A stretch of 64,000 nucleotides of DNA. It comes from Daphnia carinata. Its lineage: Eukaryota. The translations under genes were made by a program, and so were the position numbers. The first letter of the stretch is position 1, and the number at the start of each line of letters is the position of its first letter. Below are positions 506 through 64,000 of this stretch, in pieces. The stretch lies in NCBI RefSeq assembly GCF_022539665.2, contig NC_081333.1, forward strand, positions 3,224,001-3,288,000, in the 5' to 3' direction. The notes under the pieces were generated by a model that was not told the DNA's origin, ran no database searches, and saw only the letters and a list, made by a program, of their open reading frames with translations.

Positions 506-2110
506 GTTAATTTGATTCTCAACGAGTTCTCTCGACTGTTTACGCTAGCGGAACTGTATGAATTTATTCAAATTCACTGAATGAGCTGTCACGTACAGGC
601 AAGAAAATTGGACGCTATTAATTCCGGGGTTGCCGATCTTTACCCGCTGGTTGTTGGGCTAGGGAAGATGAAAGGCTACGTTTTCAAGTGGGTAGATGGC
701 AGCAATACAAAGTGAATTTAATTTTGTATGCTCAATAATAAGTGGTATTTTAAAAACTTAACGTGAATGCAATAGTAATGTTGTTTAAAATTAGCATAAG
801 ATGACAAAACGAAATGTTATAAAGAAATAAAATCTATTGCTGTTTTCGAAATCTGAAGCCATCTAGTGAAACAAAATTTATAAGGAAGATTAATACCCGC
901 TAGATGGCTTCTTTAGTCACTATAGGAAACAAAGAAGCTTGATCCAGCGTCCATTGCACACGACAAGTTTTTTTCCCGTTCAGGAGCAGCAGCATTTTGT
1001 AGCTTCAAAGCTTCAGTCAACCGCCATTGCGCGTTCGATAAGGTGCGGCCAAAACTTTGTCGCTGCCCGTCTCAATCCTCCGCCAACGTGTCCGGCTCAT
1101 TTCCCGCGCCTGTCCACCTTTCGCGAACTACAAGATTCTTTCTGTACAACTCAGGATAATTTTGGCGTGCATTTTATGCGCGTTAACCAGCAAGAAGGAG
1201 CATTTTGTACGAGTGTGTGAGTTGTGCAGTGTCTTGTGTGCTGCAGCGGCCATTTTCTTTTCCCTTACGAAACTTGATTGAAAAGTGATCATCAACGTCA
1301 TCACTGCATGCATCGTATATATGTGGCGAACAGTCGTCTAGGAAATGCATTGAAGTTAGATCATCCTTTTCCTATAGGCCACGATCTCGTTTGGCAACCT
1401 ATTGCAGAACACAACAAAACAGCAGCGGTCCACAGAGTGGCACAGGCAGTGCGAGTGGAGGCCCTTCCCATTTAGTAGGTTTGTCCCACTTGTCGGGTTC
1501 CCACAAGGACAATACTATGGGTTTATGCAACCCGAACTGGGTTTGAGTTATTTTTTTATGCGCAAGTGTTGCTCTAAATCAGACTTGCTGAAACCTTATT
1601 TTTTTTTTTTTCAAACGAAGGATCACGTTATGCTTTATCATTAGGAATTGTGTTATTTAGAAATTAAATGGGATAACAATAAAGAATTTTTATTAAAAAT
1701 GAAATGTTTTCTGGGTGTCTTCATAGTTCCTTCGTAAGAAATTATACAGCGAAGAAAAACGGATAGTACACTTGGGTAGCAACTAAAAATTCTAAGGGGT
1801 TTGCAGCTTATAGTAGAAACCAAATTAAACACTGCTTTTTTTTTATCGTAGTCATTCCTAGCAAAATATCCCAATAAATTCGTGAAAGTAAATTTTTCTA
1901 GAGTTTGTTTCATTTCGTAAAGTTAAAGAAACAAGCTCGGCTTCTAGAAATGGCTTCGATTTTTTTGACAGCGAGAAGGGTTGTTTAAAAGACGGCACTG
2001 TATCACTGGTAAAGATTACCTCGGAGGTTCCTTTCCGTGCAGGCTCCGCCCTTTGCCACGTTACTCGTCTACCACGTTGTGGACCGCTGCTTAACCACCG
2101 AAACAAAAAC

Positions 2111-2919
2111 ATGACAGACATCAGTGCCAGCAAACGAGAATCGCTGCCTGGTTGGGAACCGGGCTCAGTTGCAACGGCTGCTGCGTTGGCTGCTGTTGCA
2201 GCCGCCTCCTCACCATCCGGCGGACCGTACCCGACTGTCGGCCTTTACTCGAATCAGTCCGGGAGTAGTGGCGGAAGCAACAGTGGAAATGGCGCCCCGC
2301 CACCTCCTCACCTTCCATCACCCTACTCGTCTTTCTCGCAACCGATCCCCTCCTCCTCTGCCTCTTCTTCAGCTCCTTATGCGCAGCCTCAAGGTATATT
2401 GCAATCTCAGTGCACCGCCCCATTATTTGTGTTGTCTAATCTTTTTCCATCCTTTTCCGTCTCCCTTTCGTAATCTTATTACCATATTCCGTTTTTGGCT
2501 CAGACTCGTGTCACGTTGGTCAATGTCCAATTGCGATTTCATGGCTACGTTCACAATATTCGTTTCATTCCTGTTCTTTATGATTGTTTAAAATTAGGTT
2601 TGCCGCAGGGCTATCCTTACCATGCATTGGAGAGCTACCCTGGCCAGCATTTGGGTTATCCATTACCCCATACGTCTCATCATCCTTATCACCATCATCA
2701 AACGCAATCATACCCTGGGTTGCCATCAAGCTCTTTGTCTCCGCAAAATTATCCGCCTCATTCCAGCATGATGGTTCATCCTTATCATCATCATCATCAT
2801 CTCTATTCACCTCAACAACCTGCAACGCCGAACCAATCACCAGGAATGGGATACACGCTGACTGTTCATCCGCAACAACAACAGCAACAACATGGTGAAG
2901 TCCACCACCAGCCCCCACA

Positions 2920-2955
<36 letters not shown>

Positions 2956-5764
2956 AGTAGTTAGTCAATCACAACCTGGATATCCATCGCTGAGTTATCA
3001 ACAAGCACCGGCTGGATCGACCCAGCAGGGTATTAGTATGCCAATATCAACGTACATCCCTCCTGTGCAGACATACGAGCCCCCTTTGGAAAGATCTGAG
3101 AATCCTCCACAAATTCAGCGACCGACGCCGATCCTTGCCGAACGGGAAGTGAATGCAAATTCCGTACACATGGTTCCTCAGACGCCGACTTCAGCGGTGC
3201 CCATATCGTTCCATCTTCAGCAACAGCAGACTTCACCCGCTCCTCCATCTCCCGGTTCTTCGGGCATGATGACACCTGGAGGAGGATCTCATCCAGACTT
3301 GGAACATGATCTCCCGCCAGAGCTGCTCCAACAGGGATGGAGAAAGATGTGGTCCAAACGAGAAAATCGAATTTATTTTTGGAACAAGACCAATGGCGAG
3401 TCACTTTGGGAAATGCCTCCCCTTCGAGCAAACGTGCGATATTGTTTATTATTTTTTTTTTTTTCTTTACTCCTGTTATCTGCGTTATCGGTGGTTTCAT
3501 AAACTATTGATTTTCGTTTAGTACGACCCGGTGTCCGACCCACTTGGTATTCAACAACCAAACCAGCAGCCTCCGGGAGCTATCAAACGGCGTGCATCTG
3601 ATGATGGGATCGGCAGTCCTTTGGCCAAACGCTTTATTCTCTCGTAATTTAAACTTGTACAGTTTTCCATTCATCAGTGTGTCACCGTTTAATCGTCTTA
3701 TAGGGGCCCGTGGGATTTGGAAGTGCCGACCAATGCCGTCGTCTTTGAAAGGAGTCCGTTGAGTTGGCCACACCCCCATCCGGATATCGAGGGCTACCGG
3801 GCAACTTTGGTTGTGAAATTGCGCCAGGCCTATCAAGAAATGTGCCATTCTAGGGAAGGTGTGTATCATGATACAACAAAAACACGTTTATGACAAGTGA
3901 AATAATAAGATTTATTTCTCACACGATAATGTGGTGAAAAATAGCAATCGACGCACCTAGAGATTCGTTTAACCGATGGCTGCTCGAGAGAAAAGTTGTT
4001 GACAGCGGCACCGATCCCCTCTTTCCCGGCCAGTGCCACCCCGAAGTTTCCCTATCGATGTATAAGGAAATTATGAACGATTTGCCCATGAAACTAGAAC
4101 GGCCAAAGTTTACGGGGGATGCGCGAAAACAGTTGTCGAAGTACGCAGAAGCCGCGAAAAAGATGATTGAAACCAGGTATTTCATTTGTTAATATTCCAA
4201 CAAACTGGTGCATCGCAATAGGCTAAATCACATTTTATTACAGGAATGTAAGCTCAGAGAGTCGTAAAATTGTCAAATGGAATGTAGAAGAAACCTTTCA
4301 GTGGTTACGACGAACTGTAGGCGCTACGTATGACGACTTTCAAGAACGGCTGGCGCACCTTAAACGTCAATGTCAGCCGCACCTGACGGAAGCTGCGAAA
4401 TCATCCGTTGAGGGCATCTGCATCAAGATGAATAATCTGTCAGCAGAATACGCAAAAAAGATACGAGATAAGCACAACGAGTTACTCAAGGAGAATGGAC
4501 TTGCCGGTAAATTTACACTTTCCTTTTTCTTAAAATTTTTATTCAAACAGACAGTTGCTTATTTAGTTTGAAAATTTTATCAGATTTGGAACCCAATGTA
4601 AACCTACTCCATCCGCGAAAAGTCTGGTGTTATCCGGTCCTCTTTGCTCTCCCATGTCCTCGATTACCGCCAGTCGAATTCCTTCCCGACAAGGACCAGA
4701 CGTTGCTACGCTACAAAGGTGATGCAGTACGAATTAACAATCTCCATTTTCAGAAACTGGTATGGTTGGATCACTTTTTTTAAGCCACCAACGTAGTAAA
4801 TTTTTTTGTCCTACTTTTTTCATTGTTGGCTCTTTCAGGAGCAACTGTATCGGTACAACTGCTTTGAGGACCGCAAATTTGAGTGGTTTTTGCCGCGAGT
4901 CTGGTGCTTACTCAAGCGCTACCAGTCCTATATGGGGGCACAGACGGGCAACGAAGGCCAGGGCACTCAGGGTGCTCTACCACTGACCGTTTTTGAGGCC
5001 CTTTACAAACACTTTGGCGTCTCTTTCGAGTGCTTCGCCTCGCCGCTCAACTGCTACTTCCGTCAATTTTCCTCCGCTTTTCCCGACACGGATGGCTACT
5101 TTGGTTCCAGAGGGTATGCGCTATTGCGTTCTCTACTCTATCAATAATTTCTTAATTTTCCCCGTGAACCTTGTAGGCCAATTCTCGAGTTTAAGCCGGT
5201 ATCAGGATCTTTTGAGGCCAATCCCCCCTTTTGCGAAGAGTTTATGGATTCGATGGTCACACATTTCGAGAAGCTTTTATCCGACTCCAGCGAACCACTG
5301 TCTTTCATTGTTTTCATACCAGAATGGCGCGAGCCAGCCCCACCTGTTCTCAAAAGACTGGAAGAGTCATCGTGGAAGAGACGTCAGGTTGTTGTGCCCA
5401 CCTTCGAACACGAATACCGACATGGTTATCAACACCTCGTCCCAAAGTAATTATTATCCTGGAATAATGACCCTTCTCTTTCATACAAAGCGTATTTTGT
5501 CTTTGTAGATCCGAAATAAATGTAAGGGCAGCACATGGGACAGTCATCGTCTGGTTACAGAACGAAGCCGGATATCAAAAATGGGGACCGACAGATGAAC
5601 GGGTAGATGCTTTACTGGAAGCTTACCGGCCTGGCCGAGAAAGAGAACGAGACCGGCAAGAGCTTCTAAGTCCTCCAAGACCTAATCAGTCACTTGATGG
5701 GCCTATTGCTAACATGTTAAATGTCAACGGTAGTGCAGCAATAGCTGGTATGAAACCTATTTGA
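2111..5764 (+). CDS. PCIF1: Phosphorylated CTD-interacting factor 1 (mRNA cap m6Am methyltransferase), multi-exon
   Basis: WW domain [36 protein letters not shown]; conserved [28 protein letters not shown]; catalytic FEANPPF (5220-5231); [11 protein letters not shown]; last exon [12 protein letters not shown]...MKPI* ending at TGA 5762-5764; short GT-AG introns. Confidence 0.93.
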
Positions 5765-6191: not shown

Positions 6192-6300
6192 ACGTGCAGT
6201 TTTATCGATCGAATTCAAATCAAAATTTTATTTGATTGAAATCGATCGAATTCAAATCAAAATTTTATTTGATTTGAATTCGATCGATAAAACTGCACGT
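6192..6300. repeat. Short palindrome with ~33-bp arms and an internal direct duplication
   Basis: acgtgcagttttatcgatcgaattcaaatcaaa ... tttgatttgaattcgatcgataaaactgcacgt; atcgatcgaattcaaatcaaaattttatttgatt occurs twice inside. Confidence 0.85.
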
Positions 6301-6591
6301 CTAGCCACTTATGGCAACCCGTTTTTCCCAAAATAAAAAATAAAAATACGGTCTTTTTTTCTCTTTTACTATGGCATATGGCTATGGCAATCCGTTTTAC
6401 ATAAAAAAATTTAAAAAAAATGGCGGAAAAAAAAAAAATCGCACTTTTTTCTCTTTTTTCTACCCGTAGCCATCTATCAGTCGGTTTCGTTATTACAGGC
6501 ATGTAAGCAATTTGAGTTAATTGTATCCCATTAGCAGTTAATTGAGTAGCGTGGCTGGAGAACAACGCGTGGCTGGAGGAACAATTGAAAA

Positions 6592-7600
6592 ATGGATAAG
6601 ATAATAAAACAAAAAAATGGTAAGTATAAACATTATTATATTGGTTTTCAATTATTAATTATTGTTTATTAGATCAAATTATGAAGCTGCAGGCCCAGTT
6701 ATTGGAACAACACAAAATATTAGATAACAAAGCTAAGGATCGTAGGCCTAACACGTAATGATTCTATTTATTTGCTTTTATTCATTCGTGTTTTGTAGCT
6801 CAAATTTTGAGTCTACAAGCTCAGCTAGGGGAAAAGAACAAATTGGAATGAAACAGTTTCCAAACAGTGAAGGAGGTTTTTCCAAACTCATGCCTAACTG
6901 AACATGAGGATGAATTGGCATTAGGTGAAGTAGTTAGGTACCTAAACTTTTCAAATAAGAATTCAAAATAAGTATAGAATTTTAACAAACAATTATTTAT
7001 TGTTTAGTTATTCAGTCTACCACCTGATAGTGTGTTAAATTTAAATTCTGTTAGTGCTGCACTAAAAGAATCGTTAGTAATAAGCTCATGCAGTGAAGGA
7101 ACTGAACAATTGTGGGACCGTATTTGGGCCGAAAATGGGTGTGGTACAGAAACCCAGAAATGGCACAAGTTCAACATGAAACATAGATTAGTTACTTTTT
7201 GGTTTTTTGTCTATCGAAAAAGTATTTTTAATGCTATTATTTTGCATTCACAGATTTTAACGGGGGATCAAATCAAGTCTGGAAGTGTTACAGGATGGAA
7301 GAGTGAGCCTACAGATGAAAAAACACTGAGAGTGCATTACCGTAAGGTGTGAGGTAAATTAATAGAGTAATGCAAATTGCCTAATGAGAAGTACCATCTT
7401 GTGTTAATGAATCCAGTACAACAGCAATCCTTTATAGTTCTGTCACAGCTAGAAGCCTCAAATAATTCTGCTTCTCTGTCTAAAGAACAACTTGTCCTTT
7501 ACGTTCAGACTGTTGGGGAAACTGGGTACTTAAATGGCCCTAAAGATGTTTTAATTTTGCTGCTATTGCAGAGATGAACATCATACATGGACTCTTTAGG
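6592..7600 (+). pseudogene. Spliced coiled-coil gene remnant in left arm of palindrome 1 (3' end approximate)
   Basis: ATG GAT AAG..AAT G|gtaagt, ~50-nt introns, exons MDKIIKQKN-DQIMKLQAQLLEQHKILDNKAKD-xQILSLQAQLGEKNKLE*...; premature TGA near 6848. Confidence 0.6.
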
Positions 7601-8065
7601 TATGAAAGGATTTTTCTTCAAATAATTTTGAATTTATGACGAAGAATTTCTCCTCCTTTTTGCCAACCAGGTCTTATCTACCAAAAAAAAATTTAACCAA
7701 TAGGAAAGGATTTTCATGTACTGGGAACACAACTATCAACAACGCAACATTCTACAGGTGCTAGTTTATCATTCAAGAGCCTTATACAATGAAGTTAATC
7801 TGCAATTTGTATGTCCTTTCCCAAGCTTCCACCAGAAGTTGAATCTATGAGTCATGTAAGTTCCATGATCAACAATTGATGTGTTTAATGGTGTTGTTTT
7901 TCTTTTCTCAATATAGGTTAATAGTAAAATTGGATCTGAAAAGATTCTTGGTTGGGGCAAGACACTGAATAAATTGTATTGATTGGATGGATGACATGAC
8001 ATTGCTATACTTAATTCGGATTCCCCAGACGGTATTTGATATTAAAAAAATTGAAGTGCATATCT

Positions 8066-8408
8066 GGGCTCCCTTCTTTTCTGAAGCCCCGTTTCCCCTT
8101 GACTCATAATAAGCCCGTAGGGGGTCATGCCCCTACTGTACGGTATATATAAAAACAACATATACCGAGGTTTGGAGGGCTCTGGCCGGAAAGGGGACGT
8201 GGGGTGCCGCTTAGTCCGATGATGTGTTCACGGAGGGTGACGTGGCTGCCCACAAATCCGAACTAAAGGTTAATCGCTCCTGTAAAAATGTTCCAAATCT
8301 TCAGCTCTTCTTCCGGCTTCTCTTAGCCAATCACCGGGTAATCTCCCCGGTGGGTCAACAAGGCAGTGTCTCCCCCTGCCTGGGTTGACGGCAACTTTTG
8401 AAAGGGCT
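8066..8408 (-). ncRNA. Candidate structured RNA of unknown class (left arm, copy 1)
   Basis: Reverse complement of 9352-9694; multiple hairpins and long-range stems. Confidence 0.45.
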
Positions 8409-8674
8409 ATTGTGCCTTTTTAAAGTTGCAAAAATAATTGTTATGTGCAGAGAATTGTCAATAAAATTTTTTTTATAAAATGTTTTTTGCAAAATTTTTT
8501 TCTTTCATTGTCTGTGTTCGCTTTGTTCACACATTACATTTATCAACTTTTTTTTTATTTAGCTTGCTCATTTCATCTTTATTGTTTATGCCACCTTTGT
8601 TCTTTATCAGCATTGTTTACTATTTATTACACTAATACATGGATATTATCTGTATTTTGTACTTGTACATTGTT

Positions 8675-8742
8675 TTATTCAGGGATCGATCCCCAGACAT
8701 TCAGCGTGCAACGCCGATGCTCTAACAATGAGCCACGAGATA
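8675..8742 (-). other. tRNA-like unit (TGC at anticodon position), degenerate
   Basis: rc: TGGCTCATTGTTAGAGC (A box/D arm), TCGGC-GTTGCAC-GCTGA anticodon arm, GGATCGATCC (B-box-like). Confidence 0.6.
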
Positions 8743-9021
8743 TATCTAAATTTTTTATCATCGCATATCATATGTTATCGTCTAGCATGTTTATGCACTT
8801 TGAATAAAACTGAAATGTTTATCTATTTTTTTCTTCATTTAGATATAGATCTTTAAACATCTCACTGCGATAACTGAACCCAGGGTTCAAACCGCAGCTG
8901 AATGCTTAAAGATCTATATCTAAATGAAGAAAAAAAATTGATAAACATATAGTTTTATTCAAAGTGAAAGATGCATAAACATCCTAGACGATAACATAAT
9001 ATGCGATAATAATAAATTAAA

Positions 9022-9088
9022 TGATTCATAGCTCAATGTTAGAGCATCGGCGTTGCACGAAATGTCTGGGTTCGATTCCCATGAGTAA
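9022..9088 (+). other. tRNA-like unit, degenerate (pseudo-tRNA or SINE head)
   Basis: TGATTCA TA GCTC AATGTTA GAGC A TCGGC GTTGCAC ... TGGG TTCGATT CCCA TGAGTAA: acceptor stem 6/7 paired, canonical A and B boxes, anticodon arm partly deleted. Confidence 0.65.
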
Positions 9089-9351
9089 AACAATGTACAA
9101 GTACAAAAATACAGATAATATCGATAAAATAAATAGAAACAATACTTACAGATAAACGATACAACGGTGGCAAAAACAATAAAGATGAATTGAGCAAGCT
9201 AATAAAAAAAAAGTTGATAAATGTAATGTGTGAACAAAGCGAACACAGACAATGAAAGAAAAAATTTTTGCAAAAAACATTTTATAAAAAAAATTTTATT
9301 GACAATTCTCTGCACATAACAATTATTTTTGCAACTTTAAAAAGGCACAAT

Positions 9352-9694
9352 AGCCCTTTCAAAAGTTGCCGTCAACCCAGGCAGGGGGAGACACTGCCTT
9401 GTTGACCCACCGGGGAGATTACCCGGTGATTGGCTAAGAGAAGCCGGAAGAAGAGCTGAAGATTTGGAACATTTTTACAGGAGCGATTAACCTTTAGTTC
9501 GGATTTGTGGGCAGCCACGTCACCCTCCGTGAACACATCATCGGACTAAGCGGCACCCCACGTCCCCTTTCCGGCCAGAGCCCTCCAAACCTCGGTATAT
9601 GTTGTTTTTATATATACCGTACAGTAGGAGCATGACCCCCTACGGGCTTATTATGAGTCAAGGGGAAACGGGGCTTCAGAAAAGAAGGGAGCCC
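9352..9694 (+). ncRNA. Candidate structured RNA of unknown class (right arm, copy 1)
   Basis: GC-rich island in AT-rich context; stems gtcaac/gttgac, aggcag/ctgcct, caccggg/cccggtg, gccggaa/ttccggc, ttagttcgg/tcggactaa, cggtatat/atataccg, gtagg/cctac, gggcttc/ggagccc; G-U pairs favour this strand. Confidence 0.5.
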
Positions 9695-10159
9695 AGATAT
9701 GCACTTCAATTTTTTTAATATCAAATACCGTCTGGGGAATCCGAATTAAGTATAGCAATGTCATGTCATCCATCCAATCAATACAATTTATTCAGTGTCT
9801 TGCCCCAACCAAGAATCTTTTCAGATCCAATTTTACTATTAACCTATATTGAGAAAAGAAAAACAACACCATTAAACACATCAATTGTTGATCATGGAAC
9901 TTACATGACTCATAGATTCAACTTCTGGTGGAAGCTTGGGAAAGGACATACAAATTGCAGATTAACTTCATTGTATAAGGCTCTTGAATGATAAACTAGC
10001 ACCTGTAGAATGTTGCGTTGTTGATAGTTGTGTTCCCAGTACATGAAAATCCTTTCCTATTGGTTAAATTTTTTTTTGGTAGATAAGACCTGGTTGGCAA
10101 AAAGGAGGAGAAATTCTTCGTCATAAATTCAAAATTATTTGAAGAAAAATCCTTTCATA

Positions 10160-11170
10160 CCTAAAGAGTCCATGTATGATGTTCATCTCTGCAATAGCAG
10201 CAAAATTAAAACATCTTTAGGGCCATTTAAGTACCCAGTTTCCCCAACAGTCTGAACGTAAAGGACAAGTTGTTCTTTAGACAGAGAAGCAGAATTATTT
10301 GAGGCTTCTAGCTGTGACAGAACTATAAAGGATTGCTGTTGTACTGGATTCATTAACACAAGATGGTACTTCTCATTAGGCAATTTGCATTACTCTATTA
10401 ATTTACCTCACACCTTACGGTAATGCACTCTCAATGTTTTTTCATCTGTAGGCTCACTCTTCCATCCTGTAACACTTCCAGACTTGATTTGATCCCCCAC
10501 TAAAATTCTGTGAATGCAAAATAATAGCATTAAAAATACTTTTTCGATAGACAAAAAACCGAAAAGTAACTAATCTATGTTTCATGTTGAACTTGTGCCA
10601 TTTCTGGGTTTCTGTACCACACCCATTTTCGGCCCAAATACGGTCCCACAATTGTTCAGTTCCTTCACTGCATGAGCTTATTACTAACGATTCTTTTAGT
10701 GCAGCACTAACAGAATTTAAATTTAACACACTATCAGGTGGTAGACTGAATAACTAAACAATAAATAATTGTTTGTTAAAATTCTATACTTATTTTGAAT
10801 ACTTATTTGAAAAGTTTAGGTACCTAACTGTGTTCACCTAATGCCAACTTCATCCTCATGTTCAGTTAGAGATGAGTTTTGAAAAACCTCCTTCACTGTT
10901 TGGAAACTGTTTCATTCCAATTTGTTCTTTCCCCTAGCTGAGCTTGAAGACTCAAAATTTGAGCTACAAAACACAAATGAATAAAAGCAAATAAATAGAA
11001 TCATTACGTGATAGGCCTACGATCATTAGCTTTGTTATCTAATATTTTGTGTTGTTCCAATAACTGGGCCTGCAGCTTCATAATTTGATCTAATAAACAA
11101 TAATTAATAATTGAAAACCAATATAATAATGTTTATACTTACCATTTTTTTGTTTTATTATCTTATCCAT
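10160..11170 (-). pseudogene. Spliced coiled-coil gene remnant in right arm of palindrome 1 (3' end approximate)
   Basis: Mirror image of 6592-7600, with the same premature stop. Confidence 0.55.
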
Positions 11171-11439
11171 TTTTCAATTGTTCCTCCAGCCACGCGTTAT
11201 TCTCCATCCACGTTCCTGAACTAACTGCGAATGGCATCCAATGGACTGAAATTGCCTACGCCAGTAATAACGAGTCTGAGCGGTAGATGGCTGCGTGTCG
11301 GAAAAAAAGAAAAAAGTGTGATTTTTTTTTTTTTTTGGCGAAATTTTTTTTTTTTTTTGTGTAAAACGGATTGCCATATTTCGTCATCTACCGGTCACGT
11401 TAATTCTCTAAATACACAAAAAAAATTTTAAGCCCAACT

Positions 11440-12210
11440 AAATAAGCCCGACTTTACTCGGTCGGGTTTAAAAAAATTTTCTGCAAAAATTGAAGCTAAT
11501 CAGAATTGGTTGAATATCACAGGATATACTCAAAATTGAATGCTGATTCCGGGGAAATTGCTACTTTTTTCACTGAGTTAATCGTTTTTGAAGTAAACCG
11601 AATATTTGACGCAGTGCTAGCGCGCCAGTACGCTACAGCGCTAGCGCGATGCAGCAAAATATTAGTTGAGTGTATGTAGAGAACTAACTATATATCTGGC
11701 CGGTAGATGGCGATAGCAGTGGGTTGAAAATAAGCCCGACAAAAAAAATTAGCCCGAACTGTTAGCGCAACATGTGTATTTTACATTTATTTCAAAAACC
11801 GTAAAGCAAATGCAAAAATAAACTTGATTTTCATGATTTCCATTCAATTACGAATCGAAATGATGTATTTTACGTGAAATTTAAATTTGGGCCAAAGATG
11901 AAAAAGTGGGAAGGCTATATAGCCTTCTCACTTTTGTCAAAATCGGCCAAAAACGAAATCTCACGGAATTGGATGAAAATCGTACCGTATAATCAAAATT
12001 TAACGATGATTTCGATTCTGTGATTGGTTTTGTCGCTAAGCCATCCGTTTTTGAAATAAATTTAGAAAAGAAAAATAAACTTGGTTTTCTTGATTTTTGA
12101 ATAGAAATCATTTTAAAATAAATGATTTTCACTTAAAATAGTGAAGTTTAAATTTTTCCAACATTGAAAAGTGGGAAGAGTATAGGCTTCCCCAACGAAA
12201 CGAAATTTCG
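11440..12210. repeat. Second repeat family (AAGCCCGAC hairpin plus GCAAAAATAAACTTGATTTT / GAAAAAGTGG modules)
   Basis: 11812-11910 aligns by eye with 63856-63952; both loci also carry an aagcccgac...gtcgggytt hairpin (11441, 63712). Confidence 0.7.
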
Positions 12211-13027: not shown

Positions 13028-16000
13028 CTAAATTATTGTAATTTCTTCTTCAGTGGGTGGAAGGGCGTGAGCCTGCGAGCTGGAGGAACAACTAAAATCC
13101 ACGTAATTTTCATGATGGGCTTCGAAGTCCTCCAGGGAGCAACGGAGCTCACGGAATGTAGGGCGGTCGTCGGGATTTGCGCTCCAACATTTCAGCATGA
13201 CTTGATAACTATAATAATTTTTTAAAATAATGTTAATGCCACTTAATACGAAAAGACTTGCAGTCTTAAAAAATAGGTTACAGTTTTTCGGAGACATTAT
13301 CTGGCCTAATTAACCGATTGCCAGACAGCAGGTACGTCATCAGTTGAGCGTCGGAAATATTGGCGTAAGGGAATCCACCTATAAAAGAAAGCTTTAATTC
13401 GATTTTTATATTCAAGAATATTGAACCAAATAAAAAAGGATGAGAAACCTAGCGTGCAAATTTCCCATAGTACCACGCCGAAGGCCCAGACGTCGCTCAA
13501 CGAGGAATACAAATTATCCGTCATGGATTCAAGGGCTAGCCAGCGAAGTGGAAGCATTCTTTTCCGTGTGTTCACGTATACGCCATGGCGTGATAGTCCA
13601 AAATCAGAGATTTTCAGCACACGGCCTTCGCTAACCAACAAATTACGAGCAGCTAGATCTCTACACGAAGGGTTTTAAATTAGTACCGCGTTTTTAACGG
13701 ATTCGAATCATCGCTTACCGATGCGTGATTCCTTTCAATTCCAAATGTTCCATGCCCCGTGCAATTTGCCGAGCGAAATCGTGTAATTCCTCAGTGTCTA
13801 TGGTTCGGCTCGTTGGGAACGCTTTCAGCAAACCCCGATAATAGTTTGGTATGACATAAGACGAAGACGAGTGCGACGATCTAAGCGTTCAATCGATAAC
13901 GCAATTAATTTATACCAGACGCTGCTATTTAAAATTGTTTGCGTACCCAGTTGATTGCGAGCTCATTGAAGCGAAAATGTGATTCAGATGATAAGATTTC
14001 GAACTGTCTGATGTGCTGTGCGTGGTCGATTTTCTCGGTAGCAAGGCCACTGATGAACTCGATCCTCCTATGCTGGCAGATACGGTATCTGGATGATGTT
14101 GGACTTTACTGTCAACCGACCACACTGTACAACATTTTCAAAAACATTCAAAACAAGCAATTTAATTAAAGCCTTATTGTAACCTTTGGATTGGTGGTAA
14201 ACAGCTCGCAACGTCCTAAGGTAATGGAGTAGGTCGCCATAGGGAACGTACTCTAGGATCATCGAATATGGTTGATTTAGAGTAACGCAGGCTAGCATAA
14301 CGACAATGTTTTCATGACGACCGACACGTTTCATCATAGCGATCTCAGCCAGAAAATCGTCTCTTTCATCCAAACCAACTTTCTCTGGAATAAGGAAGCA
14401 AGAACAAATGTAAAACGACATTGGCAAAGTTTTGATGTCAACAATAAGCTTACTTTTCATTTGCTTGACGGCAACAAGAGTCGGGCCAGGAAGGCCGGGT
14501 AGGTTTTCGACTGTTGCCAGGTGAACGCGACCAAACGCCCCCTTTCCGATTTCTACCCCCAGCTTCACTTGGCTAGGATCAATTTCATAGTCATCCACGA
14601 CTTTGTTATTTCCAAGTAAATGATGACGGGGTTCCTACATTTAAAAAAAATATCCATTAGACCGCTAGAATAATCGATCACGTTACAACAAAGTTTGGCA
14701 ACTCATAATTTTTTTTTTGTTTTCTTCTTTTCCTATAACACAAAGGAGCCTTAAGCTGGTTGAACTTACTTCAGAGTCTCTATCCGCGTGCAGGACGTTC
14801 ATCAAACGTTGGCAGGTACCACTGGAGCCATTAGTTAGCAAAGTCGTGCGTCGGCTGTCCCTATACGAAATCGATCATAATGACAGTTTCATCATTATGG
14901 AGTTTAGAAACTTTTGTTAACCCTTGGATTATACACGGCTCCTTTACCAACAGCCAAAGACGCCTATAGTACGGAAAAATTGTACTACCAATAATGAAGT
15001 TATAAATGATATCCACCTTCCCCCAAAAAACTAAGTTTGAAGTTCAAAATGGACGTGTAATCAATACGCTGTTTACACAAGAAACTACTTCCAACCATTA
15101 TTCAACTGGTTTTCAGTCATCTAAGGTCTTTATGGTGCACTACTTTGTAATAACAAAGTTCAGACTATGCTTTACAAACCGACTCCCACTCCCTGGCAAA
15201 CAGAAAGTTCGTATTCTTGTTTGAAAAATTAAACCGCCTGGGAAGATTAGAGAGGTGCTAATAAAGAATGCGCCTGTGGAATGTTTAAAGTGAATGCGCG
15301 AATCCCTACCCAGTGAGTGAAACGACGGGGAACAATCAGAAGAAAATTGAAAATTTAAACCTGTGGAAATTTTGCGGAGAGCGTGAATAACGCGCCGGGG
15401 TGTGATTGCCTGTTGCAGCAGTCGCCGCCATGAGATGTAATCGTCGAAGAAAGCGTCTCCAACTGAGTGCAATAACCAGAGCCATGACGGCCAAGAAAAT
15501 AACGCCAAAGACGACTGCGCTCACCATCGTTTCCTTAAAAAAAAAAAAAAGAGAAACAAAAACAAAGGTATACCATTAGGCGGGACAATTACAAGAATGC
15601 CGTGCCTTTGACAGACATGCGCCATTAACCAGCAAAGGTCATATGGAAAAGGGTAACGTTGGTGGATATTCAATTTTTAATGGAAAGGCGGAATAAAAAA
15701 ATTACTACAAAGCTGAAAGCCGAATACAAAAAATCGTGCCTGACGAACGTTTCGTTTCGCGGTACATGTAATGGATTTACCTTGTGCAAGCTAGGATCTT
15801 TTTCTAACTTCACATCTCCTGAAAAAAAAAATGCATATTGAATTATTTATTGCGAGATTTCACAATTGCGCATTTGGATATATACTGTTCAGGTAAACTT
15901 CTGCAATCTGGCCCTCGCAGTGATGCGAGTCGTAGGCGAGGATCCGGATACGATAATTGGAATGAAACTCTAAATGATGAATCGGCTGCTGGAAAAAGTT

Positions 16001-17418
16001 GAGACCGGGTACAACGTTGTGTCTGTATTCCCTGACTTTGCGGAAAACAGGTCCGAGGCCAAGGACATTTTCCGCTCGTTCCACCCGTACAACCACAGTG
16101 GTATCAGTGGCCTCCTCCAATGGACCACGATACGACCATGAAACAAGATAGCTGCGTTCGTCATGGAGCCCGGAAGCCACGGTGATCTCGTGTGTGGCCA
16201 ATTCTTCCGGTTTCGGCAAACGCGGGCGTGAACCGCACCGACAAACTCCTTCCACGCAATCTAATTTTGGAAACGTTGGTTTTTATTAACATGGAAAAAG
16301 CATTTGCTCAATATATGAGCGGATGCCAACCTGGAACGGTAATGTTAACGAAAAGTGGGCGATCAGGGGAAATTATGGGTGACGCTTGGACACTGACGGC
16401 GTAAGAGCATCCAAACTGGACCAGATGATCTCCTTTCTTCGTCCCACTTCCAATTTCGATGGATGGTGTTTCCTTTATTTTCATCCAACCAAAACAATAA
16501 AAACAAAAAGACCTGTGAGAAAGTAATAACCTTTTAGGAAAAATGAGTTCGGAACTTACGCTGTACTCTACGTGATGAAAGAAATCCGTAAAGTGTTCGG
16601 TACAAGACGACGTGTCACCCATCGAACGAGTAGATGGAATCAATGGCCTTACCTCCACATTGTATCCCTCGGGTGGTTCTCCTTTTTACGCCATAGTCAG
16701 TACAGTAATTGACAAAACTTCAACTTTAACTTCGTACTTTAGCAATCACGTTGACACAACACAGCACACCACGAAGAAAAAGAAAAGGAATTTCTTCCAT
16801 CCAGAAAGGTAATTACCCGCTGTCGGATGTAGCCATCGAATCACTAATTTGAGACGTTTGTTTGCCACGGGATCTGGCGGAAGAGATGACAATTCAGATT
16901 GATCTCTCGCGGATAACGCAACTGAAACCGTCAGATTCAACCCACCGTCGGCGGTACCTAGGCGATATTTTGAAAACGTACGTAAGGAGAAAGTTCAAGA
17001 GAGATGGACTATGATAAGACATGCAAAAATGCCTGGGGAAGAAGAGCTGTTGAACTCCTGGAATTCGATTTGGTCCTTTCCCTATGGATAAACAAAATTG
17101 TCAAACTAATCGAATAGTAACCAAATTGAAAGTCAACAGGTCGGAGAATTTTTCGAGCTCATCTCCATGTCTCATCGCGCATCAATATCAAACGATGAGC
17201 CGTTATATTAAATCAAATAATGAATGAGCCCGCTTGATTTTTTCGCGTCGTTTCTTACAACGACAAACAAACGATCATTGAGTTCAAATCGAGACGTTAA
17301 AAAAACTTACATTGGATGAAAGATCTGGCACAATAGTCGCCGCTGAAACTGGTAACGAGTTGAGACAACCGGTAACGACGAGGATAAATAGCAGGAAGTG
17401 CCATTTCCCTAAATCCAT
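13028..17418 (-). CDS. Receptor tyrosine kinase (signal peptide, FN3-like ectodomain, TM, split kinase), multi-exon; Torso/Ret/FGFR-like group, orthology not established
   Basis: N-terminus [56 protein letters not shown]; kinase motifs [21 protein letters not shown] (split by an intron), [41 protein letters not shown]. Confidence 0.9.
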
Positions 17419-58240: not shown

Positions 58241-58712
58241 CTAAAAAAAAAAACGTAGTTTTATCTTAAATCTGCTGATAATTTGAAGAAGGTGCTCCGG
58301 TTCCACGGTGTCATCGTTTCACAGGATGACGCAGCACTTTCTTTTCTCGTTGATAAAAAACCACTACAATATTTAGTTTTCCGATAAAGATTCTCTTTAG
58401 AGTCTAGATGATTGCTGAATGTACCACCGACACCATTGTGACGGATATGTCTGCCAACAGATGACGCCTTCATCGAAAAATTAAAACCCTTTACCGCTTT
58501 GATATGGCAATCCGTTTAACACAAAAAAAAAAAAAAAATTTCGCCAAAAAAAAAAAAAAAATCACACTTTTTCTTTTTTTTCCGACACGTAGCCATCTAC
58601 CGCTCAGACTCGTTATTACTGGCGTAGGCAATTTCAGTCCATTGGATGCCATTCGCAGTTAGTTCAGTAGCGTGGATGGAGAATAACGCGTGGCTGGAGG
58701 AACAATTGAAAA

Positions 58713-59770
58713 ATGGATAAGATAATACAACAAAAGGATGGTAAGTATAAACATTATTATATTGGTTTTCAATTATTAATTATTGTTTATTAGATCAAAT
58801 TATGAAGCTGCAGGCCCAATTATTGGAACAACACAAAATATTAGATAACAGCAAAGCTAAGGATGGTAAGGCCGTAATGATTCTATTTATTTGCTTTTAT
58901 TCATATGTGTTTTGTAGCTCAAATTTTGAGTCTACAAGCTCAGCTAGGGGAAAAGAACAAATTGGAACGGAACAGTTTCCAAACAGTGAAGGAGGTTTTT
59001 CAAAACTCTTCTCTAACTGAACATGAGGATGAGTTGGCATTAGGCGAACACAGTCAGGTACCTAAACTTTTCAAATAAGAATTCAAAATAAGTATAGAAT
59101 TTTAACAAACAATTATTTATTGTTTTGTTATTCAGTCCACCACCTGACAGTGTTTTAAGTTAAATTCTCTTAGTGCTGCACTAAAAGAATTGTTAGTAAT
59201 AAGTCCATGCAGCGACGGAAGTGAACAATTGTGGGACCGTATTTGGGCTGAAAAATGGGTGTGGTAAGGAAACCCAGAAATAGCACGAGTTCAACGTAAA
59301 ACATGAATTAGGTACTTTTCGGTTTTTTGTCTATCGAAAAAGTATTTTTAATGCTATTATTTTGCATTCACAGAATTTTAGTGGGGAATCAAGTGAAGTC
59401 TGAAAGTGTTACAGGATGGAAGAGTGAGCCTACAGTTGAAAAACACTGAAAGCGCATTACCATTAAGGTATGAGGTAAAGTAATAGAGTATGCAAATTGT
59501 CTAATGAGAAGTACCATCTTGTGTGAATGAATCCTGTGTAACAGCAATCTTTTATAGTTCTGTCACAGCAATCTTTTATAGTTCTGTCACAGCAATCCTT
59601 TATAGTTCTGTCACAGCTAGAAGCCTCAAATAATTCTGCTTCTCTTGCTAAAGAACAACTTGTCCTTTACGTTCAGAGTGTTGGTGAAGCTGGGTACTTA
59701 AATGGCCCTAAAGATGTTTCATTTCGTTGGCATTGCAGCGATGAACATCATACATGGACTTTTTAGGTAT
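58713..59770 (+). pseudogene. Spliced coiled-coil gene remnant, left arm of palindrome 2 (3' end approximate)
   Basis: MDKIIQQKD|DQIMKLQAQLLEQHKILDNSKAKD|AQILSLQAQLGEKNKLERNSFQTVKEVFQNSSLTEHEDELALGEHSQ| is open across three GT-AG-joined exons; later exons disrupted. Confidence 0.6.
59541..59617 (+). repeat. 24-bp tandem triplication
   Basis: acagcaatc(t/c)tttatagttctgtc x3; single copy in the other three arms. Confidence 0.9.
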
Positions 59771-60230
59771 GAAAGGAATTTTCTTGAAAATTTTTTGAAT
59801 TTATGACAAAGCATTTCTCCTGCTTTTTGCCAACCATGTCTAATCTAAAAAAAAAAATTTTATCCAATAGGAAAGGATTTTCAGCATACTGGGAACACAA
59901 CTATCAACAATGCAACATTCTAGGGGTGCTATTTTATCATTTAAGAGCCTTATACAATGATTTTCATCTGCAATTTGTATGGCCTTTCCCAAGCTTCTGC
60001 CAGAAATTGAATCTATAAGTCATGTAAGTCACATGAGCAACAATTGAGATGCTTAATGGTGTTTTTCTTTTCTCAGCATAGGTTAATAGTAACATTGGAT
60101 CTGAAAAGATTCTTGGTTGGGGCAAGACACTGAATAAATTGTAATGATTGAATGGATGACATGACATTTCTATACTTAATTTGGATTCCCGAGACGGTAT
60201 GTTATATTTAAAAAATTGAAGTGCATATCT

Positions 60231-60573
60231 GGGCTCCCTTCCTTTCCGTAGCCCCGTTTCCCCTTGACTCGTAATAAGCCCGTAGGGGGTCATGCCCCTA
60301 CTGTACGGTATATATAAAAACAACATATACCGAGGTTTGGAGGGCTCTGGCCGGAAAGGGGACGTGGGGTGCCGCTTAGTCCGATGATGTGTTCACGGAG
60401 GGCGACGTGGCTGCCCACAAATCCGAACTAAAGGTTAATCGCTCCTGTAAAAATGTTCCAAATCTTCAGCTCTTCTTCCGGCTTCTCTTAGCCAATCACC
60501 GGGTAATCTCCCCGGTGGGTCAACAAGGCAGTGTCTCCCCCTGCCTGGGTTGACGGCAACTTTTGAAAGGGCT
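60231..60573 (-). ncRNA. Candidate structured RNA (left arm, copy 2)
   Basis: Near-identical to 8066-8408. Confidence 0.45.
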
Positions 60574-60798
60574 ATTGTGCCTTTTTAAAGTTGCAAAAAT
60601 AATTGTGATGTGCAGAGAATGGCCAATAAATTTTTTTTTATAAAATGTTTTTGCAAAATTTTTTTCTTTCATTGTCTGTGTTCACACATTACATTTATCA
60701 ACTTTTTTTTTATTTCAATTCACCTTTATTGTTTATGCCACCTTTGATTGTAAGCATTGGTCCCATTGGTTTATCGTTTATCTGTAAACATTCAATTA

Positions 60799-60866
60799 TT
60801 ATCCAGGGATCGAACCCTGGATGTTCGGCATACCGCGCCGATGCTATACCAATGAGCCATGAATCA
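60799..60866 (-). other. tRNA-like unit with a different anticodon-loop sequence (GCGGTAT)
   Basis: rc: TGATTCA TG GCTCATTGGTATAGC A TCGGC-GCGGTAT-GCCGA ACAT CCAGGGTTCGATCCCTGG. Confidence 0.6.
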
Positions 60867-61114
60867 TATGATGTCAGGTTAGCTTTTTTCTAGTCACTTG
60901 CGGACTTGCATTTACACTTTGAATAAAATTGAAACGTAGATCTTTATATATCTACTAAGGTTTGAACCCAGGGTAACAGTTACCGCAGCTGAATGCTCTA
61001 CCACAGAGCTATGAACCTTATGAAAGTTATAAAAAGATAAATATATACTTGTGAAAGACTACATAAACATCCTATACTATAACATATGATATGCGATAAT
61101 AGATATGATAGATA

Positions 61115-61185
61115 TATCTCGTGGCTCAATGTTAGAGCATCGGCGTTGCACGCTGAATGTCTGGGGATCGATTCCCATACCAGTA
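61115..61185 (+). other. tRNA-like unit (TGC at anticodon position), degenerate
   Basis: GTGGCTCAATGTTAGAGCA TCGGC-GTTGCAC-GCTGA ATGTCTGGGGATCGATTCCCA. Confidence 0.6.
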
Positions 61186-61500
61186 AAACAATATACAAGT
61201 ATAAAATTACTTCAGAAAATATCCAGGTATTACACGCTGTTCCTTGTCTAAGTTAAAGAATTCAAGAAGTGTAATAAGTACTAATTGAATACTAACAGAT
61301 AAGCGATACAATGGTGGCAAAAACCATAAAAATGAATTGAGCAAGCTAAATAATAAAAAAAGTTGATAAATGTAATGTGTGAACACAGCTAACACAGACA
61401 ATGAAAGAAAAAAATTTTGCAAAAAACATTTTATAAAAAAAAATTTATTGACAATTCTCTGCACATCACAATTATTTTTGCAACTTTAAAAAGGCACAAT

Positions 61501-61843
61501 AACCCTTTCAAAAGTTGCCGTCAACCCAGGCAGGGGGAGACACTGCCTTGTTGACCCACCGGGGAGATTACCCGGTGATTGGCTAAGAGAAGCCGGAAGA
61601 AGAGCTGAAGATTTGGAACATTTTTACAGGAGCGATTAACCTTTAGTTCGGATTTGTAGGCAGCCACGTCGCCCTCCGTGAACACATCATCGGACTAAGC
61701 GGCACCCCACGTCCCCTTTCCGGCCAGAGCCCTCCAAACCTCGGTATATGTTGTTTTTATATATACCGTACAGTAGGGGCATGACCCCCTACGGGCTTAT
61801 TACGAGTCAAGGGGAAACGGGGCTTCAGAAAAGAAGGGAGCCC
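61501..61843 (+). ncRNA. Candidate structured RNA (right arm, copy 2)
   Basis: Near-identical to 9352-9694. Confidence 0.45.
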
Positions 61844-62304
61844 AGATATGCACTTCAATTTTTTAAATATCAAATACCGTCTGGGGAATCCAATTAAGTA
61901 TAGAAATGTCATGTCATCCATCCAATCAATACAATTTATTCAGTGTCTTGCCCCAACCAAGAATTTTTCAGATCCAATGTTACTATTAACCTATATTGAG
62001 AAAAGAAAAACAACCATTAAACATATCAACTGTTGATCATGTAACTTACATGACTCATAGATTCAACTTCTGGTGGAAGCTTGGGAAAGGACATACAAAT
62101 TGCAGATTAAAATCATTGTATAAGGCTCTTGAATGATAAACGAGCACCTGTACAATGTTGCATTGTTGATAGTTGTGTTCCCAGTACATGAAAATCCTTT
62201 CCTATTGGATAAAATTTTTTTTTTTAGATTAGACATGGTTGGCAAAAAGCAGGAGAAATGCTTTGTCATAAATTCAAAACTATTTGAAGAAAAATCCTTT
62301 CATA

Positions 62305-63319
62305 CCTAAAGAGTCCATGTATGATGTTCATCTCTGCAATGGCAGCAAAATTAAAACATCTTTAGGGCCATTTAAGTACCCAGTTTCCCCAACACTCTGA
62401 ACGTAAAGGACAAGTTGTTCTTTAGACAGAGAAGCAGAATTATTTGAGGTTTCTAGCTGTGACAGAACTATAAAGGATTGCTGTTGTACTGGATTTATTA
62501 ACACAAGATGGTACTTCTCATTAGACAATGTGCATACTCTATTACTTTACCTCATACCTTAATGGTAATGCACTCTCAGTGTTTTTTCATCTGTAGGCTG
62601 ACTCTTCCATCCTGTAACACTTCCAGACTTGATTTGATCCCCCATTAAATTCTGTGAATGCAAAATAATAGCATTAAAAATACTTTTTCAATAGACATAA
62701 AACCGAAAAGTACCTAATCCATGTTTCATGTTGAACTTGTGCCATATCTTGGTTTCCGTACCACACCCATTTTCGGCCCAAATACGGTCCCACAATTTGT
62801 TCACTTCCTTCACTGCATGGGCTTATTACTAACAATTCTTTTTGTGCAGCACTAACAGAATTTAAATTTAACACACTGTCAGGTGGTAGACTGAATAACT
62901 AAACAATATATAATTGTTTGTTAAAATTCTATACTTATTTTGAATTCTTATTTGAAAAGTTTAGGTACCTGACTGTGTTCGCCTAATGCCAATTCATCCT
63001 CATGTTCAGTTAGAGAAGAGTTTTGAAAAACCTCCTTCACTGTTTGGAAACTGTTCCGTTCCAATTTGTTCTTTTCCCCTAGCTGAGCTTGTAGACTCAA
63101 ACTTTGAGCTACAAAACACAAATGAATAAAAGCAAATAAATAGAATCATTATGTATTAGGCCTTACCATCCTTAGCTTTCCTGTTATCTAATATTTTGTG
63201 CTGTTGCAATAATTGAGCCTGCAGGTCCATAATTTGATCTAATAAACAATAATTAATAATTCAAAACAAATATAATAATGTTTATACTTACCATCCTTTT
63301 GTTGTATTATCTTTTCCAT
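62305..63319 (-). pseudogene. Spliced coiled-coil gene remnant, right arm of palindrome 2 (3' end approximate)
   Basis: Mirror of 58713-59770; same GT-AG exon structure. Confidence 0.55.
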
Positions 63320-63699
63320 TTTTCAATTGTTCCTCCAGCCACGCGTTATTCTCCATCCACGCTACTGAACTAACTGCGAATGGCATCCAATGGACTAATA
63401 ATGAGTCTGAAGATTGCCTAAAAAAAGAAAAAAGTGTGATTTTTTTTTTTTTGGCGAAATTTTTTTTTTTTTTTTATGTAAAACGGATTGCCATACTTTG
63501 ATTGTTTTATTTATGAACTGCAAAACCAACAGGAAAACTGATATTGTTTTTGAAATAAGCATTAAATTTTGATTAAATTCCACGAGTTTTTTAGATTTCC
63601 AAGAGATGTCAAACAAAAGTGGGAAGGCTGCGATTCATTTTTCAAGTTCATTTTTGCATTTTTTTTTTGAAATATTCGTAAAAAACAGAGGGTGCGCTA

Positions 63700-64000
63700 A
63701 GAGGTCGGACAAATAAGCCCGACCCTCTATGTGTCGGGCTTATGTTTCTAGCCAAACATTTTGACAAAACTACTTGAAATTCAATGCAAAAATAAACAGT
63801 TATTTTAAAACTATATTGAATATTGGGCTGTAGCGTTCAAACCACAAACCCAATGCAAAAATAAACTTGATTTTCGTGGTTTCCATTCAATTAAGAATCG
63901 AAATCATGTATTTTAAATGAAATTTAAATTTTGGCCAAAAATGAAAAAGTGGAAAGCAAAAATAAACTTGATTTTCATGATTTCCATAATCAATTTTAAC
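63700..64000. repeat. Second repeat family, related to 11440-12210; runs off the window end
   Basis: ATAAGCCCGAC-loop-GTCGGGCTTAT hairpin and repeated GCAAAAATAAAC(T/A) modules. Confidence 0.7.

What the first reader, a model, noticed from the sequence alone, without database searches (positions are those of the whole stretch)
8865..8897. Central hairpin is in flip versus flop orientation in the two copies
Seen: copy 1 centre is CTGCG ATAAC TGAACCC A GGGTTCA AAC CGCAG CTGAATGCT. Its reverse complement, CTGCGGTTTGAACCCTGGGTTCAGTTATCGCAG, matches the copy 2 centre GGTTTGAACCCAGGGTAACAGTTACCGCAG (60959-60988). The asymmetric flank CTGAATGCT stays on the right in both copies, so the core is inverted relative to its own flank and not just with the whole element. 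Known: flip/flop isomers are typical of hairpin resolution (parvovirus rolling-hairpin and poxvirus termini) and of inversion between inverted repeats. Inference: the palindrome may be an integrated dimer of a hairpin-ended molecule, or the centre is a nicking or inversion site.
Basis: partly seen in the sequence, partly recalled or inferred. Interest (0 to 1): 0.75.

Follow-up and report, generated by a model that had tools for sequence, protein, structure and literature searches.

The report
Microinversions in a giant palindromic transposon
In a water-flea-like genome, two copies of a 5-kb mirror-image DNA element differ by a small inverted patch at their centre, likely left by ordinary DNA-copying slips between the two arms rather than by a virus-like hairpin-end mechanism.

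Summary
The inversion is real, but it is not a flip/flop pair. Both sites are centres of 5-kb whole-element palindromes (6383-11378, 58503-63495). These have TATGG..CCATA ends, and copy 2 has a 6-bp target duplication, as in IS3EU DNA transposons.

Only copy 1 folds into a central hairpin (z -7.4; copy 2 z 0.0). The central base is not flipped. Copy 2's centre is a degenerate tRNA-like unit, paralogous to four flanking units.

Two nested template switches from a copy-2-like state cut the difference between the cores from 14 edits to 4. The best of 178 controls reached 8, and the reverse direction also 8. The switches build copy 1's hairpin as a by-product. Across the inner ~330 bp of each arm, 28 markers alternate in 7 parallel/flipped blocks, so breakpoints are many, not one nick site. 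The outer arms are homogenised within each copy.

Each arm carries a broken spliced gene of a dispersed Daphnia carinata family (96 annotated sequences). A D. magna homolog resembles the N-terminus of eukaryotic IS3-type integrases.

The mechanism is known; the palindromic element family was not found in my searches.

The parts
6383..11378 (.). Copy 1 of the palindromic element; TATGG..CCATA ends; no matching 6-bp flanks
58503..63495 (.). Copy 2 of the palindromic element; TATGG..CCATA ends
58497..58502 (+). Left 6-bp target-site duplication of copy 2 (CTTTGA)
   Evidence: chance agreement 3.5e-4
63496..63501 (+). Right 6-bp target-site duplication of copy 2 (CTTTGA)
8865..8897 (.). Copy 1 core: perfect 7-bp inverted repeat around base 8882; core inverted relative to copy 2; inferred product of two nested template switches
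60947..61018 (-).
   Evidence: RF00005 18.2 bits, E 0.68, below gathering score 29; aligns with the four flanking units
8560..9200 (.). Copy 1 central quasi-palindromic spacer: patchwork of parallel, flipped and homogenised blocks
8619..8641 (.). Outer flipped block (left arm of copy 1 matches right arm of copy 2)
8736..8770 (.). Middle flipped block
60690..61360 (.). Copy 2 central spacer (approximate bounds); its two sides are only 79.8% alike without gaps
8680..8735 (-). tRNA-like unit pointing outward (copy 1 left)
   Evidence: RF00005 22.5 bits
9022..9089 (+). tRNA-like unit pointing outward (copy 1 right)
   Evidence: RF00005 28.8 bits
60804..60859 (-). tRNA-like unit pointing outward (copy 2 left)
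   Evidence: RF00005 24.8 bits
61122..61177 (+). tRNA-like unit pointing outward (copy 2 right)
   Evidence: RF00005 23.3 bits
7254..8559 (.). 1306-bp tract 100% complementary to 9201-10506: inferred recent arm-to-arm conversion in copy 1
6592..8465 (+). Broken multi-exon gene of the left arm of copy 1, pointing to the centre (ATG 6592; AATAAA 8460; stop in exon 3); 3' end approximate
9295..11170 (-). Mirror gene in the right arm of copy 1 (frameshift in exon 3)
58713..60630 (+). Gene in the left arm of copy 2 (frameshifts in exon 4); its introns are skipped in contigs of run X1
61444..63319 (-). Mirror gene in the right arm of copy 2 (frameshift in exon 4)
6310..6382 (+). Extra partial terminus and reiterated TATGGC directly left of copy 1

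Best explanation
The inverted core is likely the scar of DNA-polymerase template switching between the two arms of a 5-kb palindromic element that has IS3EU-type ends and is likely a non-autonomous DNA transposon. Shown: the two ~2.1-kb outer arms are homogenised within each copy, while the inner ~330 bp on each side is a patchwork. Inferred steps: (1) The family-type centre is copy-2-like: a non-folding spacer with a tRNA-like unit across the axis. (2) While copying the left arm, the polymerase hopped to the opposite-strand copy of the right arm, copied the ~25-bp core backwards and returned. This inverted the core and perfected the adjacent 3 bases. (3) A second, nested switch perfected the 7-bp inverted repeat and re-inverted the central base. 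(4) Similar earlier exchanges with other breakpoints gave the two outer flipped blocks. The hairpin is therefore a product of the inversions, not their recognition site, and has no inferred function. The element itself likely arose by fold-back duplication of one end of an IS3EU element, including a decayed transposase-like gene, and spreads by a transposase supplied in trans.
For: Core distance 14 drops to 7 with one switch and 4 with two, going from copy 2 to copy 1. The reverse direction gives 9 and 8, and a pure inversion gives 9. Controls: best two-event value 8 among 178. The hairpin is in copy 1 only. The copy 2 centre matches the full tRNA model weakly and aligns with four flanking units; no tRNA hit covers copy 1's centre. 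28 parallel/flipped markers fall in 7 runs, p 0.0026 against shuffles. Two-and-two columns in the outer arms: 51 within-copy, 3 flipped, 0 parallel; from 8521 inward: 8, 21, 14. Spacer inversion together with arm conversion from one intermolecular switch, and reversal by sequential switches, are described in yeast (PMC8604942, passages). Ends and target duplication: against PMC10045372 and PMC12730594 (passages). Dispersed family: 15 clusters with 96 member sequences, all 15 representatives named D. carinata, on contigs of 10 different lengths, 7.9-14.4 Mb. 3 of 46 listed members are one identical protein under two consecutive gene ids, as two arms would give. The C-terminal part of D. magna homolog P0002 resembles helix-turn-helix N-termini of PF24764-bearing eukaryotic clusters (TM 0.66-0.74).
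Against: Only two full copies were available; no genome is held, so the direction of change has no true outgroup. The switch model is flexible (2-nt homology was required by construction), and the controls were random mutations, expanded from the top 8 first-step products against 25 for the real case. Four differences remain unexplained. The outer flipped blocks were not modelled, and crossover or conversion would give them equally well. Copy 1 lacks a target duplication. No transposase domain was detected in the arms, and P0002 has no Pfam, longer-homolog or meaningful PDB hit. Its link to the arm is about 45 residues at 56% identity, and its annotation could be a chance fusion. Gene ids need not be positional.
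Confidence: 0.7

Rival explanations
1. The patchwork comes from homologous recombination: crossovers and conversion between the arms, or between family copies in opposite orientation, rather than polymerase hopping.
For: A 1306-bp perfect tract in copy 1 is the size of palindrome conversion tracts, and rare crossover inversions are known in Y palindromes (PMC3723533, abstract). One X1 contig joins left-type to right-type spacer sequence on opposite strands (60802/61246, depth 10.9, 54 letters). The family has many possible donors.
Against: The core events span about 10-30 bp in a region where copy 2's sides share no pair-exclusive 9-mers, which is poor substrate for strand invasion. Inversion coupled to perfecting of adjacent bases fits better than pure inversion (7 vs 9).
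Confidence: 0.15
2. The exchanges happen during transposition: a copied-out single strand of the palindrome snaps back into a 2.5-kb hairpin whose heteroduplex is repaired or re-copied, so each jump homogenises the arms and reshuffles the centre.
For: The whole element is self-complementary, arms are closer within than between most copies (97.9 and 95.4% vs 93.1-96.0%), and IS3EU is assigned to the IS3 family (PMC11934779, passages). Copy-out transposition of bacterial IS3 elements is recalled knowledge, from no call.
Against: Repair of one snapped-back strand homogenises but does not swap alleles. Copy 2's arms are no closer to each other (95.4%) than the two right arms are (96.0%). No intermediate was observed.
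Confidence: 0.08
3. One reading: an integrated head-to-head dimer of a hairpin-ended replicon, with flip and flop isomers made by nicking at a terminal resolution site, as in parvoviruses.
For: The element is a palindrome with a locally inverted centre, and alternating AAV concatemers show both orientations (PMC11575299, passages).
Against: No hairpin in copy 2, central base not inverted, six orientation changes, a tRNA-like centre, transposon ends with target duplication, an intron-containing gene, no relevant Pfam family, and 0 hits for a conserved 23-mer in viral contigs.
Confidence: 0.04
4. The palindromes or their centres are assembly or fold-back read artefacts.
For: 1306 bp of 100% arm identity in copy 1; no raw reads of this genome could be laid.
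Against: Arms differ by 46 and 97 substitutions outside the centre, two loci share ends and architecture, copy 2 has a target duplication, and alleles are shared crosswise between loci.
Confidence: 0.03

Closest known systems
Template switching at imperfect inverted repeats (Ripley type; yeast REG2 and SYG1 cases in PMC8604942, passages read)
   Same: Spacer inversion with arm perfecting from an intermolecular switch; reversal by sequential events.
   Different: Here nested and repeated at the axis of a 5-kb palindrome in a transposon family, with blocks out to about 260 bp from the centre; the yeast cases are 2-5-bp spacers in 10-16-bp arms.
IS3EU/GingerRoot DNA transposons (PMC10045372, PMC12730594, PMC6839031; passages read)
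   Same: TA..TA and TAYGG..CCRTA termini, 6-bp target duplication (copy 2), dispersed copies.
   Different: The inverted repeat is the whole element (~2.5 kb per arm) against >30 bp or 100-150 bp reported; no recognisable DDE core; two converging copies of a broken gene.
Foldback-type long-TIR elements such as Galileo (PMC4168063, passages read)
   Same: Inverted repeats extended to kilobase size by recruiting internal, even transposase-coding, sequence; changes in one arm spread to both.
   Different: Galileo is P superfamily with a 7-bp target duplication and keeps an internal region; this element has IS3EU-type ends and only a short quasi-palindromic spacer.
Sex-chromosome palindromes (human Y P6; PMC3723533, abstract read)
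   Same: Arm-to-arm homogenisation in kilobase tracts, with occasional inversions about the spacer.
   Different: Much smaller, multicopy and mobile; exchanges are dense at the centre.
Parvovirus (AAV) flip/flop terminal hairpins (PMC11575299, passages read)
   Same: Two orientations of a central segment within a palindrome.
   Different: No conserved hairpin, no fixed breakpoint, central base not inverted, no Rep gene detected.

Membership tests
IS3EU/GingerRoot | TA..TA (TAYGG..CCRTA) termini | tested here: met
   All four ends; definition
IS3EU/GingerRoot | 6-bp target-site duplication | tested here: inconclusive
   Met in copy 2 (CTTTGA both sides; chance 3.5e-4); absent in copy 1, whose left end is reiterated. 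1 of 2 copies.
IS3EU/GingerRoot | Terminal inverted repeats over 30 bp | tested here: met
   About 2.5 kb per arm
IS3EU/GingerRoot | IS3-like DDE transposase (or a derivative of it) | tested here: inconclusive
   No Pfam hit in 6 pieces (one at E 0.15, unrelated) or 9 read-through frames. Indirect link only: exon 4 matches P0002, whose C-terminus resembles PF24764-cluster proteins.
IS3EU/GingerRoot | Dispersed multicopy insertion with an autonomous partner | tested here: inconclusive
   Arm gene is dispersed in D. carinata; no genome held to find ends or a partner
Parvovirus/poxvirus-type flip-flop hairpin | Same hairpin present in both isomers | tested here: not met
   z -7.44 vs -0.01
Parvovirus/poxvirus-type flip-flop hairpin | Two exact reverse-complement isomers from one fixed nick, tip included | tested here: not met
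   7 alternating runs; central base not inverted
Parvovirus/poxvirus-type flip-flop hairpin | Rep/NS1 or resolvase gene | tested here: not met
   No such Pfam family in the arm pieces and frames scanned
Parvovirus/poxvirus-type flip-flop hairpin | Extrachromosomal hairpin-ended DNA | not testable with these tools
   Only contigs could be laid
Template-switch microinversion | Spacer inversion together with perfecting of the adjacent arm | tested here: met
   14 to 7 to 4 edits; controls at best 10 and 8
Template-switch microinversion | Polarity from imperfect ancestor to perfect repeat, shown with an outgroup | tested here: inconclusive
   Direction favoured 4 vs 8 and tRNA-like shape kept in copy 2; no third full copy
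Foldback-type long-TIR element | Kilobase inverted arms that took in internal sequence and evolve together | tested here: met
   51 within-copy vs 3 other two-and-two columns in outer arms; gene present in both arms
tRNA gene | Cloverleaf passing tRNA detectors | tested here: not met
   ARAGORN 0 genes; five RF00005 hits of 18.2-28.8 bits, all under gathering score 29: tRNA-derived remnants

The most novel reading that the evidence does not exclude
A high-copy IS3EU-derived family in Daphnia that moves as an intact 5-kb palindrome through a snap-back single-strand intermediate, homogenising its arms and reshuffling its tRNA-derived centre at each jump, while its two converging spliced genes and outward transcripts from the centre make double-stranded RNA against its own family.
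Probability: 0.1. Interest if true: 0.72.

Novelty: new variant of a known kind. Interest (0 to 1): 0.38.

Why it matters
The flip itself is an ordinary mutational process. The setting has some value. Long near-perfect palindromes are usually unstable (general knowledge), yet this family appears to spread as one, in probably tens of copies in D. carinata. Those copies would be a natural replicate series for measuring template switching, arm conversion and hairpin birth at a palindrome axis, and a handle on IS3EU elements, whose structure and function are called largely unexplored (PMC11934779, passage). It also suggests that about 96 'uncharacterized protein' annotations in D. carinata are transposon pieces.

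Tried and rejected
No genome is held for the window, so the genome-wide tally could not be run. The one metagenome scan with a centre pattern gave a single chance bacterial match, L001 (17 bases only). A conserved arm 23-mer gave 0 hits in viral contigs.

Run X1 contigs leave 8803-9112 (copy 1 core and right spacer) uncovered at 80% likeness, while they cover copy-2-type spacer on both sides. A hole proves nothing, so I do not count it. One 159-nt ungapped X1 piece crosses copy 2's centre (60943-61101, 17 other letters, depth 2.4) but has only 27 letters on the left of the axis, under the tool's 31-letter rule: a hint only. X3 laid nothing. X2 (share 0.08) laid 1 and 4 short pieces. Summed contig depth was not used as copy number or expression.

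Rfam microRNA matches are hairpin artefacts below gathering scores. Word-indexed searches for longer homologs of an arm piece and of P0002 found none; the atlas found nothing usable for the arm piece; PDB gave one hit at E 1.5. The first MAFFT alignment misplaces copy 2's innermost left arm; one search was used for the painting. The exon-4 translations printed are off frame and were ignored.

Three look-ups of earlier findings gave nothing relevant. Literature searches listed no description of this family; Repbase and paper supplements were not read and may already hold it.

Full report
OBSERVATION. The quoted strings are at 8865-8897 and 60959-60988. Each lies at the axis of a ~5-kb palindrome, 6383-11378 and 58503-63495; the two are about 88% alike in either orientation. 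The reverse complement of copy 1's core fits copy 2 better than the direct strand (edit distance 7 vs 12). Both left arms share one flank allele and both right arms the other, so the core is truly inverted against its flanks. But only copy 1 folds (-17.5 kcal/mol, z -7.44, 0 of 200 shuffles as good); copy 2 does not (z -0.01, 95 of 200). The central base is A on the + strand in both.

THE ELEMENT. All four ends read TATGG inward, and copy 2 is flanked by CTTTGA on both sides (chance 3.5e-4). Copy 1 has no matching flanks and has a partial extra terminus at 6310-6382. IS3EU elements have TA..TA ends and usually 6-bp duplications (PMC10045372, passages), and fungal families end TAYGG..CCRTA (PMC12730594, passages). 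Outer arms are 97.9% (copy 1) and 95.4% (copy 2) alike within copies and 93.1-96.0% between copies, with a 1306-bp perfect tract in copy 1. Two-and-two columns there are 51 within-copy, 3 flipped and 0 parallel.

THE GENE IN THE ARMS. Each arm holds a multi-exon gene pointing to the centre. Contigs of run X1 skip its GT..AG introns, and also an intron of the neighbouring gene, so that run behaves like RNA although labelled 'DNA?'. A search of 1.84 billion representatives with one arm piece gave 3 hits: D. carinata P0001, D. magna P0002 and unnamed P0003. P0001 equals exons 1-4; all four arms here carry a stop or frameshift against it. It has 15 clusters with 96 member sequences (isoforms possibly included) on contigs of 10 different lengths. 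In 3 of 46 listed members one identical protein sits under two consecutive gene ids, as expected if other copies are palindromes, though ids need not be positional. P0002 shares about 45 residues with exon 4 (56%), and its remaining part resembles helix-turn-helix N-termini of eukaryotic PF24764 integrase-core clusters (feature scores 0.89-0.93, TM 0.66-0.83). No transposase family was detected in the arms themselves. I infer a decayed IS3EU-type gene; this is unproven. The host is Daphnia-like by these homologs; I did not determine the species.

THE CENTRE. Four outward-pointing tRNA-like units flank the axes (RF00005 22.5-28.8 bits, below the gathering score of 29; ARAGORN none). Copy 2's centre is a fifth, on the minus strand (60947-61018, 18.2 bits, E 0.68), and aligns with the others. 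Painting copy 1's inner arms against copy 2's left and right alleles gave 126 classified events: 17 parallel, 11 flipped, 31 with both arms left-type and 67 with both arms right-type (some of the last may be private changes in copy 2's left arm). The 28 parallel and flipped markers form 7 runs (p 0.0026), with flipped blocks at 8619-8641, 8736-8770 and 8872-8874.

MECHANISM. On 61-nt cores anchored at shared flanks (distance 14), I enumerated intermolecular template switches needing 2-nt homology at each hop. From copy 2 to copy 1, one switch gives 7 and two nested switches give 4. From copy 1 to copy 2 the values are 9 and 8; a pure inversion gives 9. Randomly mutated controls reached at best 10 for one event (40 and 178 controls) and 8 for two (178 controls; top 8 first steps expanded, against 25 for the real case, whose best path began with a top-ranked step). 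The first switch inverts the core and perfects three flanking bases; the second perfects the 7-bp repeat and restores the central base. This is the behaviour described for yeast (PMC8604942, passages). Shown: inversion, block structure, hairpin in one copy, better fit of one direction. Inferred: polymerase hopping as the cause, copy 2 as ancestral, the same cause for the outer blocks, fold-back origin, and mobilisation in trans.

RIVALS. Recombination between arms or copies (0.15) explains the long tract and outer blocks equally well (PMC3723533, abstract) but fits the tiny, diverged core less well. A snap-back transposition intermediate (0.08) rests on recalled IS3 biology and would homogenise rather than swap alleles. 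Parvovirus-type terminal resolution (0.04; PMC11575299, passages) fails on the hairpin, the fixed breakpoint, the central base and the gene. An artefact (0.03) is unlikely given crosswise shared alleles and the target duplication.

COMPARISON AND NOVELTY. It works like a foldback, long-inverted-repeat element such as Galileo, whose repeats recruit transposase sequence (PMC4168063, passages). By ends it is IS3EU-like, with membership incomplete: duplication in 1 of 2 copies, transposase indirect. Reported repeats of that group are far shorter (PMC6839031, passages). Searches listed no account of this family; Repbase and supplements were not seen. The flip is a known process; the whole-element palindromic family is a new variant of a known kind.

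LIMITS. Two copies only, no genome, no raw reads, and a metagenome scan that returned only a chance hit. Interest 0.38.

Noticed in passing
window 8083-8432 (mirrored in all four arms): GC-rich block 98-100% alike among all arms, more conserved than the coding part, with several local hairpins (150-nt windows z -2.4 to -4.8); no Rfam family; covered by X1 contigs. Possibly a structured 3' region or a transposition signal.
   Followed up: partly
window 61223-61296: X1 contigs skip a GT..AG segment on the + strand of copy 2's right arm (2 contigs, 23 letters on the short side): a weak hint of a spliced transcript running outward from the centre, antisense to the arm gene.
   Followed up: partly
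window 6192-6300: A separate 109-bp AT-rich palindrome (85% self-complementary) directly left of copy 1; possibly a small MITE. Only microRNA-model artefact hits.
   Followed up: no
window 11748-12178 and 63642-63995: The right flanks of both copies hold pieces of a second repeat family (118 bp at 89%, with internal repeats). Could be a shared target preference or coincidence.
   Followed up: partly
window 6310-6382: Partial extra terminus plus reiterated terminal motifs at copy 1's left end, which lacks a target duplication; suggests repeated insertion or end rearrangement.
   Followed up: partly
window 59541-59617: Three tandem copies of a 24-bp unit in copy 2's left arm only, in frame within the decayed gene; an X2 contig lacks 48 bases here.
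   Followed up: no
window 1892-5670, 13300-17700, 49900-54650, 56400-56860: Ordinary host genes around the elements, named by eye from translations and not tested: a WW-domain PCIF1-like gene, a receptor tyrosine kinase, a multi-zinc-finger hindsight/RREB1-like gene with a long low-complexity upstream region, and a WD40 gene.
   Followed up: no
D. carinata proteins P0001, P0004-P0005, P0007-P0060: About 96 RefSeq 'uncharacterized proteins' of 102-180 aa appear to be pieces of this element rather than host genes.
   Followed up: partly
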